From Balamuthia mandrillaris (taxonomy: Eukaryota): a stretch of DNA of 64,000 nucleotides. The position numbers and the translations under genes were made by a program. Positions 37,979 through 58,049 of this stretch are shown piece after piece. The stretch spans positions 1 to 64,000 of the forward strand of contig JAVKOQ020000063.1 of the NCBI GenBank assembly GCA_031835245.2, in the 5' to 3' direction. Every line of letters starts with the position of its first letter. The first letter of the stretch is position 1. The notes below the pieces were generated by a model. That model made no database searches. It worked only from the letters and a program-made list of their open reading frames with translations, and was not told where the DNA came from.

Positions 37979-39754
37979 TTAGTGCGCAGTCTTGAGGGAA
38001 GTGCGAAGGGTCTTCTGCTCAAGCAGCATGTTGTGTTCAGGGGGCAGACCCACGCAGGCACGGAAAATGTTCTCCATGCAGGCGCGCTGCTTGTTGAGGG
38101 CGTTGATGACAGGAGTGCCCTGGGGGGCCAATGGGGCCTTCAGCAAGTAGCTAAGGATGGTTTGAATGGGGTGGAACTTCTCGAATTGCTCCAACTCGTC
38201 CGTCTTGAACCGGATGCGTTCTACCAGCTCCATGATGATGATGAGGTCGAGGATGATGGGAGCGGCCAGGAGGGAATCCTCGCAGGTGTTGTGCATGATG
38301 ATGGTGTTGTGGCCGCCCATGAAGATGCGGGAGGTGTACTCGTCCATGGCACGCTTGCTATCTCCAACGTAGGGCACGTACTTGATGACCACCACGTGAT
38401 CGGGGTGCTCGTGGGGGCCATAGAGAATGCGGTTGGAGGCCACCATGTCGTCCACTACGTTGGACTTGGAGATCTCCTTGGACCGGAACTGGGAGGGAGC
38501 GCTAAGGTTCTTGCCGTCGTTGTTGCCCAAGTGGTTGTAGGACACGATGGAAGTGGGCTTGATGCCGGCGCTGATCAGCCAGTCCACCATCACCGACTTC
38601 ATCTTGGTCTGTCCCGTCTTGAAGTCGTCTCCAGCAATGAAGACGTTGCGTTGCTCCGCCAGTTCGATCACTCCGGGCACGAAAGTGTTCTGTGGGCTTC
38701 CGTTGATGTAAGAGCTGCCTTCAAGAATACTGGCCACCGCGAAGATGGTGGAAGGGCTGACCTCGTCTTCACCCCTCTTGATAGCATCCAACAGGTTATC
38801 GGCTGTGTCGTTCAATCCAGCAATAACATCGCTGTTCATAACCAATTTTTTTTTGTTCGTCGTTAGCTAACGGAGAGAGCGATAAAGGACAAGAAATATC
38901 GGACCTGAAACGCTCCGTGTTGGCGGACCAAAGGACGATGACCTTATCAACGCCATTGGCAGCCTTGAAGTCCCTAATGTTACGCCTGATCTCCTCCATC
39001 TGCTCCCACTTGGAGCCCTGCAAGACGTTATCGGCGCGTTCGCTCTGGTTTGCGGCGATAAAGTCGGGGAAGTAGATGCTGGGCAGCGGCACAATGTCCT
39101 TCATGTAAGGGACCAGCTGCCTCTGGAGATCGTAGGGCAGGACCTTGGCTCTCTCCATGGCCTCCGCCAAGTTGGCGCTGTTGATGTCCCAGCCGCCGTA
39201 GACGATGTCGTTGGGGTTGACCATGGGGAGGATGTTCTTGAAGGGGAGGTAGACCTCCTTGCCCTCCTCGTCAAAGCCCATGCGGAGGGTGCTGGCCTGC
39301 GTGACGGAGCCCCAGTAGTTTGGAGTCTCCACCCCGTCCTTGGTCCTCCAGGTGATGCTCTCCCTGTTGGCAACGGTGCCGGCCACCACCGTGCTGCCGT
39401 TGTTTCCCCCGAGGCCCACGATCATGACTCCCAGCTTGGGGACTTTCCTCTCGGTCTTGAAGACATACTTCTTGGCTGCAAGGAATATTTGAAAGTAAGT
39501 CAGTTCGAACAGGAAACAAAAATAAATAAAGTGGCGCTATAGCGGCAAACAATATAGAAAATGAAAAATAAAAACGGGAAAGGACCAGAGAAAGGAAACA
39601 ACGTACAGAGAGGCTCTACCACCACACCCTCGCGGGTGGTTTTTACGGAGGTGGTATGGTAAGTATACTCGGAGATGATGGCCTCCTCCGTGTACTTCAC
39701 GTTGGGGCTGTTGACCTTCAAGTCCACGTTGTGTTGATCGACCGAAGTAGACAT
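37979..39754 (-). CDS. INO1: Myo-inositol-1-phosphate synthase
   Basis: [51 protein letters not shown]. Confidence 0.97.
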
Positions 39755-44011: not shown

Positions 44012-44558
44012 CCCCGCAACAACACTCTGCTGTTTGTTGTTCGCTGGTTTTCTTCTTCTTCTTCTTTTGGGTCCAGCTTGAGGAGTAGTCGTCTCTCCTC
44101 AAATTTCGTCGACGTTCTATCCCGCTCGCCAATAAAAATTCAGACTGCATCTCCAATAAGCCCATTGGAGATTTGATTAATCCTAATTAACTGTGACCCT
44201 CGAGCAAAACAGGGAGAAATAAGGTGGAATGAACCCTCGGGCAAATGACCAAAAGAGAAGCAATCACCCCTGCTGCAGGCCCTCATAAGGTAAGGGATGG
44301 AAAAGCCCGAGGCCTACCTAAAAGGATAAGGAAGGGGGGGCTGGTGGTCACGTTGAATTTTATTTCATCCACTTTCTTTCTTTTCTCTGTTTTCTTTTTT
44401 TTCGTTTCGGTTTGTCAAGCTCTTCTTCTCCCACACACTCAGCACACACTCCGCCACTCGGTTTCACTCACATAAAAAACACGCAGGTTTGTTATTTGCC
44501 TGGTTTTTGAGCTCTTCAGTGGCGGACCACCTTTTTTACTAAAACTTGTGCTTGCAGA

Positions 44559-46153
<1,595 letters not shown>

Positions 46154-46457: not shown

Positions 46458-47011
46458 TCATTGCAACTGTATACTAACGCGTCGAGGAACCACCACCGCT
46501 TCCAGTTTATTGACGGTAATGTGTGGTTTAACTGCCACTAAGAAGCGTATCGCATACAGGTACTACTTATAATTAGTAGCTCGGTGAGGTACATGCAATT
46601 AGTTGTGCCAATGGTGTTGGCGTTGTGGATGCAGCTTCCGCCACACCATCCTCAACATTGCTGAAGACGGAGACCACACGAGCCAATACAGCAAGCTTAA
46701 GGCTCATGTGTCGTGCCACTATGACCTCAGGCACAGTGCCCGTGGTCACCACATCAGCCCCCATGGCTGCGGCTAAACGACCAGAGGCAGCCGAGGTTGG
46801 GTAAATCGGTCCTACCACCAGTGCACTGCACGCCTCCTTTACTTCCATTCCCATATCCTTTTAGGAGAGAAGAAACTAGTCAGTGATCTTTGACATGCTT
46901 GGAGGTCGGAGAACAATAAACCTTGCCACATTCAATGAATTTTTGTCGTAGTTGTTGATTGTAGGCGTTAGACATATCTGGGAAACGATCTCCCCATCTT
47001 TAGCAGAGATG

Positions 47012-47054
<43 letters not shown>

Positions 47055-50000
47055 TTGGTTGTCAATATGAATATAAACGAAAGAGGAAGGAATAAATCTT
47101 ACCTGTCTTCGTTGTGGCCAAACAAAGGGTTGCGACCAGATAAATTGATATGGTCAGCGATAACAACGCTGTCACCCAATTGCAAACGAGCTGTACAACT
47201 AGCAACATTGCAACCAAAAAGCAGCGTCTTTACTCCTAACGCATTTAATAACTAGTTGAAGAAGAACTCCTCGATCAGCTACAAAACAGGCAAAAGGGCT
47301 ACAAACTTAGGTTGGATACCTACCCGGACAGCAAAGGCAATCTGCCAGAAGGGTCTTCCTTCATTCATAAAGAAGGACTGGGCGACCCAAAGCACCGGGA
47401 CTTGTTGATCCCCAACAACAGCGCGGTAGAGAGTGCAACCACTAGGAGCATGCGGCACGTTCTCCAGCGGCTTTAATTCTTTGAGCTGGTGGGACATTCC
47501 CTCCCAGTCCTTTTCAGAGAGGATAGCCACAGAAGGTACGCCTTCCTTTCCAAGTAACTCTTTTATGCATTCAGCAGCACTTTCCACGTGTTGGTAATCG
47601 CCTTGGGTTATCTCTGGCGCCAGTTCATACATCATCTATGGGGTGCAAAAGCACACGATGGAGTGAGACTAGCTGTAAAGATAGACCAAAAAAAAAAAGC
47701 TCAAAAAGAGTAGTGCCTGTTGCTCAAAATAGCGAATAGGGTTTGGCTCATCTTCTGGCCGTGGTGTAGCTTTATCACTCCCACTACGCAGCGCAGCTAG
47801 CAGCAACGTGGCCATGGAGTCAGCTGTAGATGCCGACAATTCCTCCTCCCGATACTCCGAAACGGCTCGCTGAACGAAGAGTGGTCAGGAGCAAGCAGTT
47901 AATGGATAATCCTATTTAACAAAGGCAGCAAACCTCTTTTTTTGCAGCACTACTAATAATATCCCCGCCAACAGCCGCCAAGCCACAGACTTCGATGCCA
48001 TTTGCCTGTGCCGCCCAGGCTGTCGACCTTTTTTGTTCAAAAAGTTTTTCAGACGTACTCCGAGAAGAGAAAGAGAGAAGAGAGAGAACATACAACGAAG
48101 AAAGGCCAAAAAGATGGCAGCCAATCTGTTGGGCAATAGCGATTTCAGCGGGGGTTGGTAAAGTAGGTCCGGGGAAGGCCATGTATTCAGCGTTGGGGCG
48201 ATAGCTTATGTCAAGTGCCTCTGCAGCCTTACTTATCACGGGCAACAAACTGTTACATGTGGCACAAAGCAGCATGATTAAGAGCAGAGTATTCAAGAGA
48301 AACCAAAGCAAACGTACCTGTTGCAGGTAAATGGAGCAGGTTTAGGCATGAATTGTTGTAACGATACATTTTGGGGCACTGGATGGACCGTTGTGAAGTC
48401 TACTGCATCAGACAGGGCCACAATAGCACCTGGTTTAAGAGTCTCATCACATGAATCTGTTTATTTTGAAACATTTTAATGAGACACCCAACGGTTTTAA
48501 AACCACAATCAGATGAGGGGTTACCCAAAACAAATGTGTGCACCAGAGTGGTAATGCCAAGTATACGCAAAAGTCGCGAGAGGAACACGCTTTCCTCACA
48601 GGAGAATCCTTATTCAAAAGTCAGACAAAACTGTGTGAGATTAACATAACAACACACATACCTTCCCAGTGATTTCCAGCGAGACAACACACTCGCCATT
48701 TGTTGTCCAGGGTCCCAAACAGTAAATAGCCATCCCTGCCTACATTAACGTATAAAGTTAGTAACAGGAGCTTTAGAAATAGCTGTTAAAAAGCAAAGGA
48801 AACGGCAAAACGGATGAACTAACCAGAAGCGGAGATAACAGAAAAGTGAGGAATCCTAGAATAGGGCACTTTCTTTAGGTTGGTTAGCGTGTGAAGGAGG
48901 GCGGCCTCCTGTTTGTTGCCACCCAAGTAAAGGGCCATGGTGCTGAGTTCAACGGATGTATTCTCACGAGAGGTGTTCTCACCGTCGTCAACTGACAATA
49001 TTTGCGAGAACACAAACTCGCTGGCTTCCAACAAGAAGTGCTTTGGGGCAACGGAGCCCATCAACAGTGGTAGCGGGGTTGGTGTCAGCCGCTCTTTTTC
49101 ATTCAACATCGCTTCTTCTGCTGAGCTTTCGCTGTGAGGTTCTAGTTCAAAGTCTTTCTTAATGTCGGAGTGAGCCAACCGGTCAAAGAAGAGCTTCATG
49201 AAGCGCACAAAGTTCGGGCCCGCTTGGCTCGCGATTTGTTGTACCATCGCATGGGTGAGATGCTCATCAGACATACCCGCAGCCATGTTTGTGATAAGGG
49301 ACATAGCAAAGACCTCCATGCCCAACGCAGCCGCCACCGACGTTTCTGGCACTGTGCTCATGCCAAAGGCACTGACTCCAAATTTACAACCAGCTTTGAC
49401 CTCAGCAGGAGTTTCATAGGTTGGTCCGCAAGTGCTGCCGTACACGCCACTGAATAATTTGAAACCTTTCATTACCTCGCCTGCAGTTTCCTCCGCGATT
49501 GTTTTCATTCTTGGGCTGGTAGGTAATGCGAGTTAGTGGTTTGCACAAGAATACCGAGAGCCCAACACACAATAAGAAGAATCCTCAGAACAAGAACACA
49601 GACGAGAAGAATTCAGCACCTATACAAGCACTGGTAGGCTGCATGGCGTGGGCCACTCAAGCCTGAATGCTCGTATGTATCTAAGGTTCGCGGGAATGAA
49701 GCAAGCTAAACATCAGAAACGAGGCGAAACGATGGGTAGGAAGTACGAGACAAACCATGCAAAGGATTGCGATGAAAAAGGTTGACATGGTCAGAAATGA
49801 CCATGATGGCTCCCGGATACATGCCAGCACCAGAGCCACCAGCTGCGTTTGTGGCTATGAAGAGCTTACAGCCGAGTAGCTTCATCAAGCGTGCTGCAAA
49901 AGTGATCTGGTACATGTGAGCCCCTTCATAGGCATGCGTGCGGCCTGCCAGGCAAAATAACTAGTGGCCAACAACGGTGATAATTGGTATCGTATGTTGA

Positions 50001-50548
50001 CACAGGTTCTGTAACAACAGAAAGAGAGAGCAGAGAGCAGAGAGCAGAGAGCAGAGAGCAGAGAGAGAGGAGAAAGAATACAGAAAGGCCTTGAACAGTG
50101 CCACGGATAAGAGTGCCAGGGTGGCCTTTAACAGTGGGTGTGGGCATGTACGGTATGTCCGTGTAGCTGAGCTCCTGTGCTCGGGAAAAACAAAAAAAAA
50201 AACCCAAGTGAGAACACGAAAAGGCTGTCACTGTAACGCTAGTCTACTGCTGAACCTTCTTGTTCTCTATGACGTCCACGAAATCTTTGAGGCCACTGCC
50301 GAGCACCAGGGCTATTCTGGCCTCCCCCAAATGTTCTCTCACATACTTGGCGGCCTCCAGCAGTTGTTGATAATACTCGTCCGTCTGTTATACCCCCGCC
50401 TGTTAGCAACAACAAAAAACAACAAACCAACACCACACCCCTCTCCACCTCCACCTCCTCCCCCAAATTTTAATGCCACCAAGCGGCGGCAGCAGCAGCA
50501 ACGTACGTTCTCTGCCAACGGGTGAGCAACGTGCGCCTCCTTTTCCAT
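46458..50548 (-). CDS. Purine nucleoside phosphorylase with three tandem trimeric-class PNP domains (end 46458 or 46573)
   Basis: Domain 1 VLGSGL, GRTHAYEG, TNAAGG, GPTYETPAE, GMSTVPE, ITN; domains 2 and 3 are degenerate repeats of the same motifs; exons join in frame. Confidence 0.85.
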
Positions 50549-50924
50549 TTTCTTGCTCCTTTGCGGCGGCGGCGGTAGTACGAGTGGTAGCAGGGGTAGT
50601 GGTGGCAGTGGTTGTGCACTAGGCCACCTTTATATAGATATCTCCTAGCGCTGTGCCTCCTGTGCGTCACTACCGTCGACAAAAACCAAATAAAAAATAT
50701 TCGAAACAACAAACCTGAGGCAAACAAACTGTCTCCTCAGCGCTCCAGGCCGTGCACCTCTACTTGGGGGAGTGAAGTGAGTTGGGTTCCCCCTCTCCTC
50801 TCCTCTCCTCTCCTCCTCCTTTCTATTTTTTTTTCGTTCTGTTTTGAAAGTGAGTGAGACCAGCGCGGCGGTGGTTGATTAGCTGCACCGAGTGCAGCGA
50901 GTCACTGAAAGACAAAAAGAAAGG

Positions 50925-53569: not shown

Positions 53570-55850
<2,281 letters not shown>

Positions 55851-56077
55851 TTTCTTCTTTTTTCTTCCCTTCTTCCCGTTGTTGTTGTTTTTATTATTAT
55901 TTATATTTTTTTCAAACCCTTTTTTTTATTTTATTGTTTGGAGAATGATGTCGACATTTATTTTATTCGTCGACATATGGACCTCTGCTTGCCGACAAAT
56001 AGTGCAGCAATGGTGCACGAATGGGGGGGTTAAGTGCACAAAACGAGCAGCCGCGCTGCTGCTCGTGCTGACGTGGG

Positions 56078-56892
56078 CTATGGTGGAGGGAAGAAGATGA
56101 GGTGGGGCCGCTCCCTGGCCAGCGCCAGGATCAGCTCGCCAAAGAGGGAGTTGGCCCAGGCGAACCACGGGCGAGTGTACCGGTTGGCGTCGTCCTTCCA
56201 GAAGCTCTCGTGCATGAAGCCCGTGCCGGCCGACGAAGCTTTGATTTGGTCGAGCAACAATGCGATCTCTGTATCGTTGTTGCTGGTGAGGGCCTTTGTT
56301 GTGCAGTGCACTCAGTGTCGGTGGCCAAGAAGGAGAAGAGAAGAGGAGAGAGGGACAAGGAAAGAAGAGAGCCATTGTGGTATGCATGGTACCTGCATGA
56401 TCAAGGCCATAGGCCAAATGTACGAGAGGCCAGTATGAGGGCTGCCCACTCCCGCCGCTACAGTGCCGCTGGAAAAATAGGGATTCGCAGCGCTGAGCAC
56501 CAACTTTCTGGTGTTGAGATAGAGCGGGTCCTCCCTCGCCACATAGCCCAAGTAGGGCAAGCTCAAGAGGCTGGGCAGGTTGGCATCGTCCATGAAGAGG
56601 GCGGAGCCGAAGCCATCCGCCTCGTAGGCATAGACGCGACCCACGTCCGTGCGGCCGATGATGCCCACGCTGTTGATGGCTTGCTGGATAGTATTGGCCA
56701 GGAGGAGGGCCTGCTTGGCCAGTAAGGGAGAGAGGTTGAGGGCGAGGAGCATCTCAGAGAGGTGCTGTAGTTCCACCACGGCCATGGCGTTGGAGGCGAT
56801 GTTGAAGGGTAACGTGGTGGCATCATCAGAGGGTCTGAATGCAGTCTTTACCAATCCTATATGCTTGTTTTGTCATCCAAGGGAAACGCGAG

Positions 56893-56943
<51 letters not shown>

Positions 56944-57305
56944 CGTAATAACACAAAAGAGAGAGAAGGATAAGGATTCGGACCACACCGCTTGGCTGGA
57001 GGACCCTGCATTTGAAGCATGAGGGTATCCGTAGCGACGGTGGTTTGTCTGGCAAAGAGGTAAGGAGGGTTTGCTAAGGTTTCCTCAGTGCCGGCCTGCT
57101 GGACCATCATCGTATTTACGATGAGGGTGACCGCTTGCAGCCAGGCACTGTCGAAACATGAAGCGGACTGGGTGGCGTTCCAGTATTGGTAGGACAGCTT
57201 CAACACTGCCAACAGCGAATCCAGCTCGTACTTGCCCTCGTACACATGAAGCGTCATGGGTGGCTTCCTGGTATCTCCTTTGTTTGGTTTTGATGATATG
57301 GGTGA

Positions 57306-57368
<63 letters not shown>

Positions 57369-58049
57369 AAGAGAAGAGAAAGAAAGATGAAGAGAATAGT
57401 GGGCATGAAAGTAAGAAAGAAGGAGAAGCATAGAGAAGCAGAGAAAACATGCAACAGAGGCGGAAAAAACCTTGGTTAGGCCCTCCCTCGTTGGCATAGT
57501 TGAAGGCATTGGCGTAAGGGTCCCAAAGCACGTTGGCCACGGACCGTTTGATCAGGCCGCACAGCAGCAGGCTCAAGGGCTTGTCCTGCGTTGCAAACGG
57601 CACATAAGGCAGCACCTGGTTCATGCTGTCTCGCAACCACTGTTGTTGAAAGCAAGATAGCTGGGTCAAGATAGATGGGTCTCTTGGGACAAAGGGGGGC
57701 CCTCACACCCTCTCCAACAAACCATAGCGTCAATGTCGCCGGTGATGATGAAGGCATCGGGGTTGGTGCCGGTGAGGTTGTAGTACTGCACGGTGGTGTC
57801 CAGCGTGTTGGGGAGGCAGTTCTCAAAGAGCTGGCCCAGCTCCGGGTCGATGAACCTGGGCAGGTACCGGGCGATGAGCTCGTTGACGGCGACGCTGGTG
57901 AACTTTCGTTGGGCGGGAGGGATCCTGCCCTCCGAGACGGAGCACAGCAGCCCCAGAAGAAAGAGCACCGCCAGCAGCAGTGCTGCTACCTTGCCGCTGC
58001 CCCCTCCTCCTCCTCCTCGCCCCTTCTCCCCTCCCTCAAAGGGCAGCAT
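56078..58049 (-). CDS. Glycoside hydrolase family 125 (exo-alpha-1,6-mannosidase-like), secreted
   Basis: ITGDIDAM|WLRDS, KYELDSL, FRPSDD, MDDANLPSLL, GSPHT, MHESF, TRPWFAWANSLFGE; N-terminal hydrophobic signal. Confidence 0.93.

What the first reader, a model, noticed from the sequence alone, without database searches (positions are those of the whole stretch)
46458..50548. Single-chain pseudo-trimeric PNP: one catalytic domain and two dead domains, one of which keeps the active-site lid
Seen: spliced exons give three tandem PNP domains (D1 ~50384-49180, D2 ~49040-47800, D3 ~47610-46600). D1 keeps GSG, GRTHAYEG, YET, GMST, ITN and LTH. D2 and D3 have lost them: GPTYETPAE becomes GPTLPTPAE and GPIYPTSAA, with no R-x-H and no Asn. 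Conversely, the loop NPLFGHNEDRWGDRFPDMSNAYN (~47130-46965) is near-canonical only in D3; it is decayed in D1 (GPRHAAYQCLY) and D2. Known: mammalian-type PNP is a homotrimer in which Glu201/Asn243 bind the base and Phe159, from the neighbouring subunit's GDRFP loop, completes the site. Inference: the trimer is encoded as one polypeptide with a division of labour. D1 catalyses, D3 donates the Phe loop to D1, and D2 is structural or regulatory. The weakest link is the D2-D3 junction, which needs a phase-0 intron ending at 47636 (GC donor at 47716 or a GT donor near 47686).
Basis: partly seen in the sequence, partly recalled or inferred. Interest (0 to 1): 0.88.

Follow-up and report, generated by a model that had tools for sequence, protein, structure and literature searches.

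The report
Three-part purine enzyme in one chain
This amoeba gene is spliced into one transcript encoding three fused copies of the purine-salvage enzyme PNP, in which only the first keeps the catalytic residues and only the third keeps the loop a neighbouring subunit normally lends, so an enzyme that is usually three identical chains likely works here as one chain with one active site, a layout shared by many distant protists.

Summary
Confirmed and widespread. RNA supports all 15 introns, including the doubted GC-AG intron 47716-47636 (17 reads, three runs), giving one 915-aa chain with three PNP domains. In 36 complete three-domain proteins (Amoebozoa, Rhizaria, jakobids, Anaeramoeba, unnamed sources), D1 keeps Glu201/Asn243/His257 in 36 of 36. 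The Phe159 equivalent is in D3 in 36 of 36 and in D1 in 0 of 36. D2 swaps Glu201 for Pro (34 of 36) but keeps interface Glu205 (35 of 36). Each domain forms its own clade, suggesting one old triplication. AlphaFold packs a homologue as one unit (pTM 0.86). In an isoform lacking half of D1, confidence falls at the D3 loop and D2 docking face but not at the D2 loop or D3 face, favouring D3 on D1 (indirect). Corrections: D2 looks structural, not regulatory, and Phe159 is a wall or clamp, reported as nearly dispensable in human PNP. No enzyme data exist here. I found no paper describing it; this scan noted it before in Giardia, another diplomonad and Naegleria. New variant of a known kind.

The parts
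46573..50548 (-). Whole coding span of the three-domain PNP gene, 16 exons, 915 aa. Exons: 50548-50507, 50384-50256, 50174-50082, 49960-49756, 49680-49620, 49515-48824, 48739-48662, 48608-48525, 48456-48318, 48249-48094, 48027-47934, 47869-47717, 47635-47324, 47251-47103, 46997-46922, 46857-46573
   Evidence: Gene model; RNA joints
49170..50384 (-). D1 (about aa 15-292): complete 6-oxopurine PNP catalytic set; own donor loop lacks Phe159 (His here)
   Evidence: iE 8e-85; S33, H64, R84, H86, Y88, E89, E201, M219, S220, N243, H257 equivalents present
49055..49169 (-). D1-D2 linker, inside exon 6, no intron
   Evidence: Open frame; no column conserved at 75%
47768..49055 (-). D2 (about aa 331-625): PNP fold without catalytic residues; keeps docking-face motif GP.x.P.x.x.E (Glu201 replaced by Pro at 48158-48156, Glu205 kept at 48146-48144)
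   Evidence: iE 9e-31; Pro 34 of 36, Glu 35 of 36
47636..47716 (-). 81-nt phase-0 GC-AG intron in the D2-D3 linker
   Evidence: 17 reads in three RNA runs plus one contig
46636..47620 (-). D3 (about aa 648-895): PNP fold without catalytic residues; own docking face decayed
   Evidence: iE 3e-39
46961..47155 (-). D3 donor loop (aa 779-808, split by intron 47102-46998); Phe801 at 46984-46982 is the Phe159 equivalent
   Evidence: Numbering from alignment to mammalian PNP chains; Phe 36 of 36; 13 of the 15 well-conserved D3 columns lie in this stretch

Best explanation
The gene makes one 915-residue chain with three PNP domains that likely folds into the ring ordinary PNP builds from three separate subunits, with D1 predicted to be the only working site and the D3 loop likely clamping onto it. 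Shown: one spliced transcript; three domains; catalytic residues only in D1; canonical Phe159 loop only in D3. Predicted: one compact assembly. Inferred: the contact cycle is D3 loop on D1, D1 loop on D2, D2 loop on D3. Each domain kept only the surfaces that matter for the D1 site: D1 its pocket and docking face, D3 its donor loop, and D2 the docking face that anchors the D1 loop. The D2-D3 contact, farthest from the site and held by the linker, decayed most. The likely reaction is phosphorolysis of inosine and guanosine (Glu201 and Asn243 intact). The arrangement probably arose once, early in eukaryote history, or spread by transfer among eukaryotes.
For: RNA. Domain scan; Pfam PF01048 three times in the Acanthamoeba-cluster, Luapelamoeba and Anaeramoeba proteins. 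Residue counts in 36 proteins: D1 H64, R84, H86, Y88, E89, E201, M219, S220, N243, H257 all 36 of 36; D3 G156 and F159 36 of 36, R158 35, D161 34; D1 position 159 never Phe. Matched gradients: donor-loop likeness ranks D3>D1>D2 in 32 of 36; docking segment 196-205 ranks D1>D2>D3 in 27 of 36, although the domain cores rank D1>D3>D2 in 31 of 36. AlphaFold2 of the 869-aa Luapelamoeba homologue: pLDDT 82.9, pTM 0.86; best fold matches are trimeric PNPs. The database isoform lacking its first 182 residues loses confidence at the D2 docking segment (-17), the D2 His64-loop equivalent (-17) and the three D3-loop blocks (-8, -10, -11), against a median of +0.6 over 56 blocks; the D2 loop (+4, 0, +6) and D3 docking segments (+1, +3) do not fall. 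Strain differences: D1 12 silent to 1 replacing, D2 9 to 5, D3 7 to 6, versus about 76% replacing at random (47 listed rows only). Calf PNP monomer is inactive and the interface is loop 141-168 on 87-91 and 196-205 (PMC9916683). Trees: D1, D2, D3 each one clade (100/99 or better; 97-99 SH-aLRT with 36 proteins).
Against: No coordinates or contact list were obtained, so the direction rests on conservation and on block-averaged pLDDT of one model each, for a homologue, not the window protein; a linker block also fell by 11. HMM alignment puts a Phe at position 159 in 7 of 36 D2 loops (18 are gaps; RF in only 1), and the window's D2 loop has Phe497 near that place. The docking order D2>D3 fails in 8 of 36 for segment 196-205 and 11 of 36 for 87-91. 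F159A is reported to change human PNP activity little (PMC9916683), so why the Phe is invariant is not explained. The 25 second-set proteins were chosen for having a D3 hit, which favours D3s with an intact loop. D2 and D3 branches are long and the outgroup is mostly bacterial, with one amoeba and one chytrid model, so the single-origin tree is not secure.
Confidence: 0.85

Rival explanations
1. Same division of labour, but in trans: whole chains form dimers, larger rings or filaments in which the D3 loop of one chain docks on D1 of another, because the D2-D3 contact has decayed.
For: The D2 loop and D3 docking face are the least conserved surfaces; sequence conservation cannot tell cis from trans.
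Against: A single chain is predicted as one compact unit, pTM 0.86; the isoform lacking half of D1 still gives pTM 0.77; a conserved Pro and Gln region before D3 and short linkers fit a closed ring.
Confidence: 0.07
2. D2 or D3 is a regulatory pseudo-enzyme whose dead pocket binds a nucleotide, nucleoside or partner protein and tunes D1.
For: Both dead domains are kept whole across distant lineages and show purifying selection; D2 has a near-invariant Pro where Glu201 stood.
Against: No pocket residues are conserved in D2 or D3; the conserved columns map to the fold and to interface segments. Mammalian subunits show no allosteric cross-talk (PMC9916683). This can coexist with the best reading and would be lineage-specific at most.
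Confidence: 0.05
3. The ring has the opposite direction (D2 loop on the D1 site, D3 loop on D2), or D1 domains of three chains form an ordinary homotrimer with D2 and D3 hanging outside.
For: Some D2 loops contain an aromatic residue near position 159 (7 of 36 by HMM alignment); D1 keeps half of its donor loop, e.g. RFGP in several rhizarian-type members.
Against: It would put the most decayed loop on the live site and the invariant loop on a dead one; the truncation test moved the other way; D1 has no Phe159 in 36 of 36.
Confidence: 0.03

Closest known systems
Homotrimeric 6-oxopurine purine nucleoside phosphorylase (EC 2.4.2.1; human, calf, Clostridium perfringens 8SWU; Pfam PF01048)
   Same: Fold (best chains TM 0.88-0.95 on one domain), full catalytic set in D1, canonical loop 145-166 in D3, predicted three-domain assembly.
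   Different: One chain rather than three; one intact site rather than three; pocket and donor loop are kept in different domains. No solved multi-domain PNP chain appeared (longest listed chain 373 aa).
Monomeric herpesvirus dUTPase (EBV, 2BSY) and the Drosophila virilis triple-repeat dUTPase
   Same: A trimeric enzyme turned into one chain by duplication and fusion; in the herpesvirus form one active site is built from motifs kept in different domains (PMC12524310, passages read).
   Different: Unrelated fold. The herpesvirus enzyme has two domains and catalytic motifs shared between them; the fly enzyme has three nearly identical repeats with three sites. Here there are three domains, one site, and the donated part is mainly a structural loop.
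Public database entries, e.g. Acanthamoeba castellanii XP_004339283 / L8GW90, Plasmodiophora brassicae CEO98610, Andalucia ANDGO_08439
   Same: Same D1-D2-D3 layout.
   Different: Named only 'purine nucleoside phosphorylase' or hypothetical; no description of the layout found in my searches.

Membership tests
Trimeric-type (6-oxopurine) PNP | PNP_UDP_1 fold, closest to trimeric PNPs | tested here: met
Trimeric-type (6-oxopurine) PNP | Base-binding Glu201 and Asn243; phosphate and ribose residues S33, H64, R84, H86, Y88, M219, S220, H257 | tested here: met
   Met in D1 only; absent from D2 and D3
Trimeric-type (6-oxopurine) PNP | Loop 141-168 with Phe159 docking on the neighbour's 87-91 and 196-205 | tested here: inconclusive
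   Loop intact in D3, docking face intact in D1; contact inferred, not read from coordinates
Trimeric-type (6-oxopurine) PNP | Homotrimer of three identical ~30 kDa chains with three sites | tested here: not met
   One 915-aa chain, three unlike domains, one intact site. It works like this family and descends from it, but is a variant, not a standard member.
Trimeric-type (6-oxopurine) PNP | Phosphorolysis of inosine and guanosine, not adenosine | not testable with these tools
   Inferred from Glu201/Asn243 (PMC9916683, Introduction)
Methylthioadenosine phosphorylase or hexameric PNP | Closer similarity than to trimeric PNP | tested here: not met
   For homologue P0009, MTAP chains score E about 1e-6 versus 1e-44 to 1e-26 for trimeric PNPs; no hexameric PNP among the 48 matches

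The most novel reading that the evidence does not exclude
An ancient, possibly pre-LECA or early eukaryote-wide PNP subfamily in which the obligate trimer was fused into one chain and two of three sites were given up for good: a natural, permanent one-third-of-the-sites enzyme whose surfaces map exactly which parts of the trimer a single active site needs, and the PNP form used by many protists including parasites.
Probability: 0.6. Interest if true: 0.72.

Novelty: new variant of a known kind. Interest (0 to 1): 0.62.

Why it matters
Why trimeric PNP must be a trimer, and whether it shows one-third-of-the-sites behaviour, has been argued for years (PMC9916683). This family is a natural experiment: with symmetry broken, evolution kept one pocket, one donor loop and one docking face, which supports the scaffold view and lets each surface be mutated separately, something a homotrimer does not allow. 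Invariance of the Phe also questions the report that it is dispensable. The family spans several eukaryotic supergroups, so it bears on early eukaryote purine salvage. It includes Acanthamoeba and Plasmodiophora, where PNP, a known drug-target class, differs in architecture from the human enzyme. Standard gene callers often truncate these genes, hiding the layout.

Tried and rejected
Alternative GT donor near 47686: no such joint listed. Two separate genes or a D1-D2 product: rejected by spliced reads across the D2-D3 linker. Natural two-domain members: 13 of the 55 new hits had D1 and D2 but no D3 hit. One is a short isoform of a full protein (P0090 vs P0147); for a group of seven 572-655 aa calls, a cluster mate of 824 aa has D3 with the Phe loop; the other five end in sequence that looks like intron read-through, not proven. 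Left out of the 36-protein count: truncated or read-through models (P0002, P0004, P0006, P0010, P0011, P0071, P0072, P0074 and those 13), redundant isoforms (P0012, P0082, P0143-P0145, P0149), P0156 (found later), and single-PNP fusions to other domains. Linker lengths do not discriminate ring direction. ESM Atlas returned only ordinary PNP clusters. No indexed holder was on record as RNA; the unindexed RNA runs were laid instead. No two-chain complex result and no model coordinates are available, so the D3-D1 contact stays indirect. No result from the 1.84-billion representative search, so the family's range is a lower bound. No whole genome is held, so whether this organism also has an ordinary PNP is open. 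Prokaryotic genomes were not scanned for the layout. Literature: searches (20 of 283 listed; 7 of 7; 25 of 25; 0; 3 of 3; 0) showed no description; passages of PMC10187560, PMC11437800 and PMC7190177 mention PNP without its domain layout.

Full report
Observation. The minus strand carries an intron-rich gene from ATG 50548 to a stop at 46575-46573. Sixteen exons give 915 aa, with 14 GT-AG introns and one GC-AG. The weak point, the D2-D3 junction, is settled by RNA: the 81-nt intron 47716-47636 with a GC donor is skipped by 7 reads of X6, 9 of X7, 1 of X8 and by the X1 contig. Thirteen of 15 introns are listed joints (six further joints were not shown). The other two are backed by adjoining contig pieces and loose ends. 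The D1-D2 boundary is inside one exon. Against a profile of 14 ordinary PNP domains the protein gives three hits, iE 8e-85, 9e-31 and 3e-39. The runs come from other strains and depth was low.

Family. Three searches (69 hits of 2647 candidates; 10 of 7986; 69 of 2031) and three cluster look-ups gave 35 non-redundant homologues with all three regions; with the window protein, n = 36. Named sources: Acanthamoeba, Luapelamoeba, Stenamoeba, Dermamoeba, Clydonella, Cavostelium, Planoprotostelium, Lapot, Leptophrys, Plasmodiophora, Andalucia, Stygiella, Anaeramoeba and two 'Eukaryota sp.' entries. Their placement in Amoebozoa, Rhizaria, Discoba and Metamonada is from my recall. The window protein groups with Acanthamoeba and Luapelamoeba (D1 59% identical; SH-aLRT 95), so the source is probably a related amoeba. 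Rows left out are listed under Tried and rejected.

Division of labour. Numbering follows an alignment to mammalian PNP chains, where N145 starts NPL and F159 follows 14 residues later. D1 keeps H64, R84, H86, Y88, E89, E201, M219, S220, N243 and H257 in 36 of 36 (S33 in 34; two are N-terminally cut). Its position 159 is never Phe (His 12, Gly 3, Tyr 5, others). D3 keeps G156 and F159 in 36 of 36, R158 in 35 and D161 in 34. D2 has Pro for E201 in 34 and keeps E205 in 35. At a 75% cut-off D1 has 79 conserved columns, none between 147 and 175 (its donor loop); D2 has 9; D3 has 15, of which 13 lie in 779-808, the donor loop and the strand leading into it. The pattern seen in the first 11 proteins held in the 25 found afterwards, though those were picked for having a D3 hit.

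What the known enzyme says. From PMC9916683 (abstract, passages, Introduction and Discussion read): calf PNP is an obligate trimer; loop 141-168 of one subunit docks on 87-91 and 196-205 of the next; Asn199 and Glu205 bond to Asn137 and Asn145 of the neighbour; Phe159 borders the neighbour's site without touching substrate, and F159A changes activity little; a six-alanine monomer is inactive; earlier one-third-of-the-sites claims were later rejected.

Architecture. AlphaFold2 on a 14-row alignment models the 869-aa Luapelamoeba protein with pLDDT 82.9 and pTM 0.86, a value that implies fixed domain packing (my inference). Foldseek's best matches are trimeric PNP chains, TM about 0.9 over one domain. 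First, matched conservation: donor loops rank D3>D1>D2 in 32 of 36, and docking segment 196-205 ranks D1>D2>D3 in 27 of 36, against a core ranking of D1>D3>D2 in 31 of 36. Best pairs with best only in the cycle D3 on D1, D1 on D2, D2 on D3. Second, a database isoform identical to residues 184-869 was folded with the same companion rows. Of 56 ten-residue blocks in D2 and D3 (median change +0.6, sd 5.5), the largest falls were the D2 docking segment (-17.4), the D2 His64-loop equivalent (-17.0), the D3 Phe block (-11.0), a low-confidence linker block (-10.6) and the rest of the D3 loop (-10.4, -7.8). The D2 loop and D3 docking segments did not fall. That is the pattern this cycle predicts and the reverse of the other. 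It is one model each, block-averaged, and indirect.

Selection and origin. Among 47 listed strain differences in the coding sequence, silent to replacing counts were D1 12:1, D2 9:5, D3 7:6, against about 76% replacing for random changes, with no correction for transition bias and further rows unseen. D1, D2 and D3 each form one clade (100/99, 100/100, 100/100 with 14, 14 and 11 rows; 97, 99, 99 with 36 rows each, quick tree). This fits one triplication before these lineages split, or later transfer. Long branches in D2 and D3, a mostly bacterial outgroup and no AU test limit the claim; the shared Glu-to-Pro change in D2 is independent support.

Against. Seven of 36 D2 loops get a Phe at position 159 in the HMM alignment, and the window's D2 has Phe497 nearby, though the RWG.RFPD context is absent. 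The docking order has 8 to 11 exceptions. Invariance of a residue reported as nearly dispensable is unexplained. Cis versus trans assembly is not tested. No activity is measured.

Known and new. It works like trimeric PNP and descends from it, but fails the homotrimer criterion. The nearest precedent in principle is the monomeric herpesvirus dUTPase, with one site from motifs kept in different fused copies (PMC12524310, passages). Six searches of the held library found no description; subscription papers and supplements were not searched or read. The proteins sit in public databases under the plain name. This scan's own notes report the same layout in Giardia, another diplomonad and Naegleria; my reading was recorded before that look-up, and I did not check those sequences. 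Verdict: real, new variant of a known kind, best explanation 0.85, interest 0.62.

Noticed in passing
window 44511-46153 (+): A gene whose translation I recognise from recall as S-adenosylhomocysteine hydrolase ends about 420 nt from the PNP stop, tail to tail. It makes adenosine, upstream of PNP in salvage. An 1893-nt X1 contig covers 46412-46856 and extends beyond, so the 3' ends may overlap. Synteny not tested.
   Followed up: no
window 50636-50629 (-): TATA-like element about 85 nt upstream of the ATG; the X1 contig's matching part ends at 50605.
   Followed up: no
P0143 (Acanthamoeba XP_004339283) vs P0086: The NCBI model lacks 40 residues of D1, including the Asn243 and His257 equivalents, that are present in the otherwise identical Logan protein; probably a gene-model error.
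   Followed up: partly
P0086 D1 loop: The Acanthamoeba-cluster D1 loop keeps RxPD plus the following residues but has Arg in place of Phe159, a near-minimal loss of the donated residue.
   Followed up: no
P0129, P0109, P0131 (Andalucia and relatives): Shortened members (694-702 aa) have lost about half of D2 yet keep the D2 Pro/Glu motif and the D3 Phe loop; candidates for the minimal scaffold.
   Followed up: partly
P0014-P0069, P0101-P0107: Many bacterial-type proteins of about 660-690 aa fuse one PNP domain to a PF01676 domain (some named phosphopentomutase), i.e. two consecutive salvage steps in one chain.
   Followed up: no
window 37979-39536 (-), 53884-55925 (-), 56312-57985 (-): Neighbouring spliced genes that I recognise from recall as myo-inositol-1-phosphate synthase, a STE20-like kinase and a glycoside hydrolase; no database check.
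   Followed up: no
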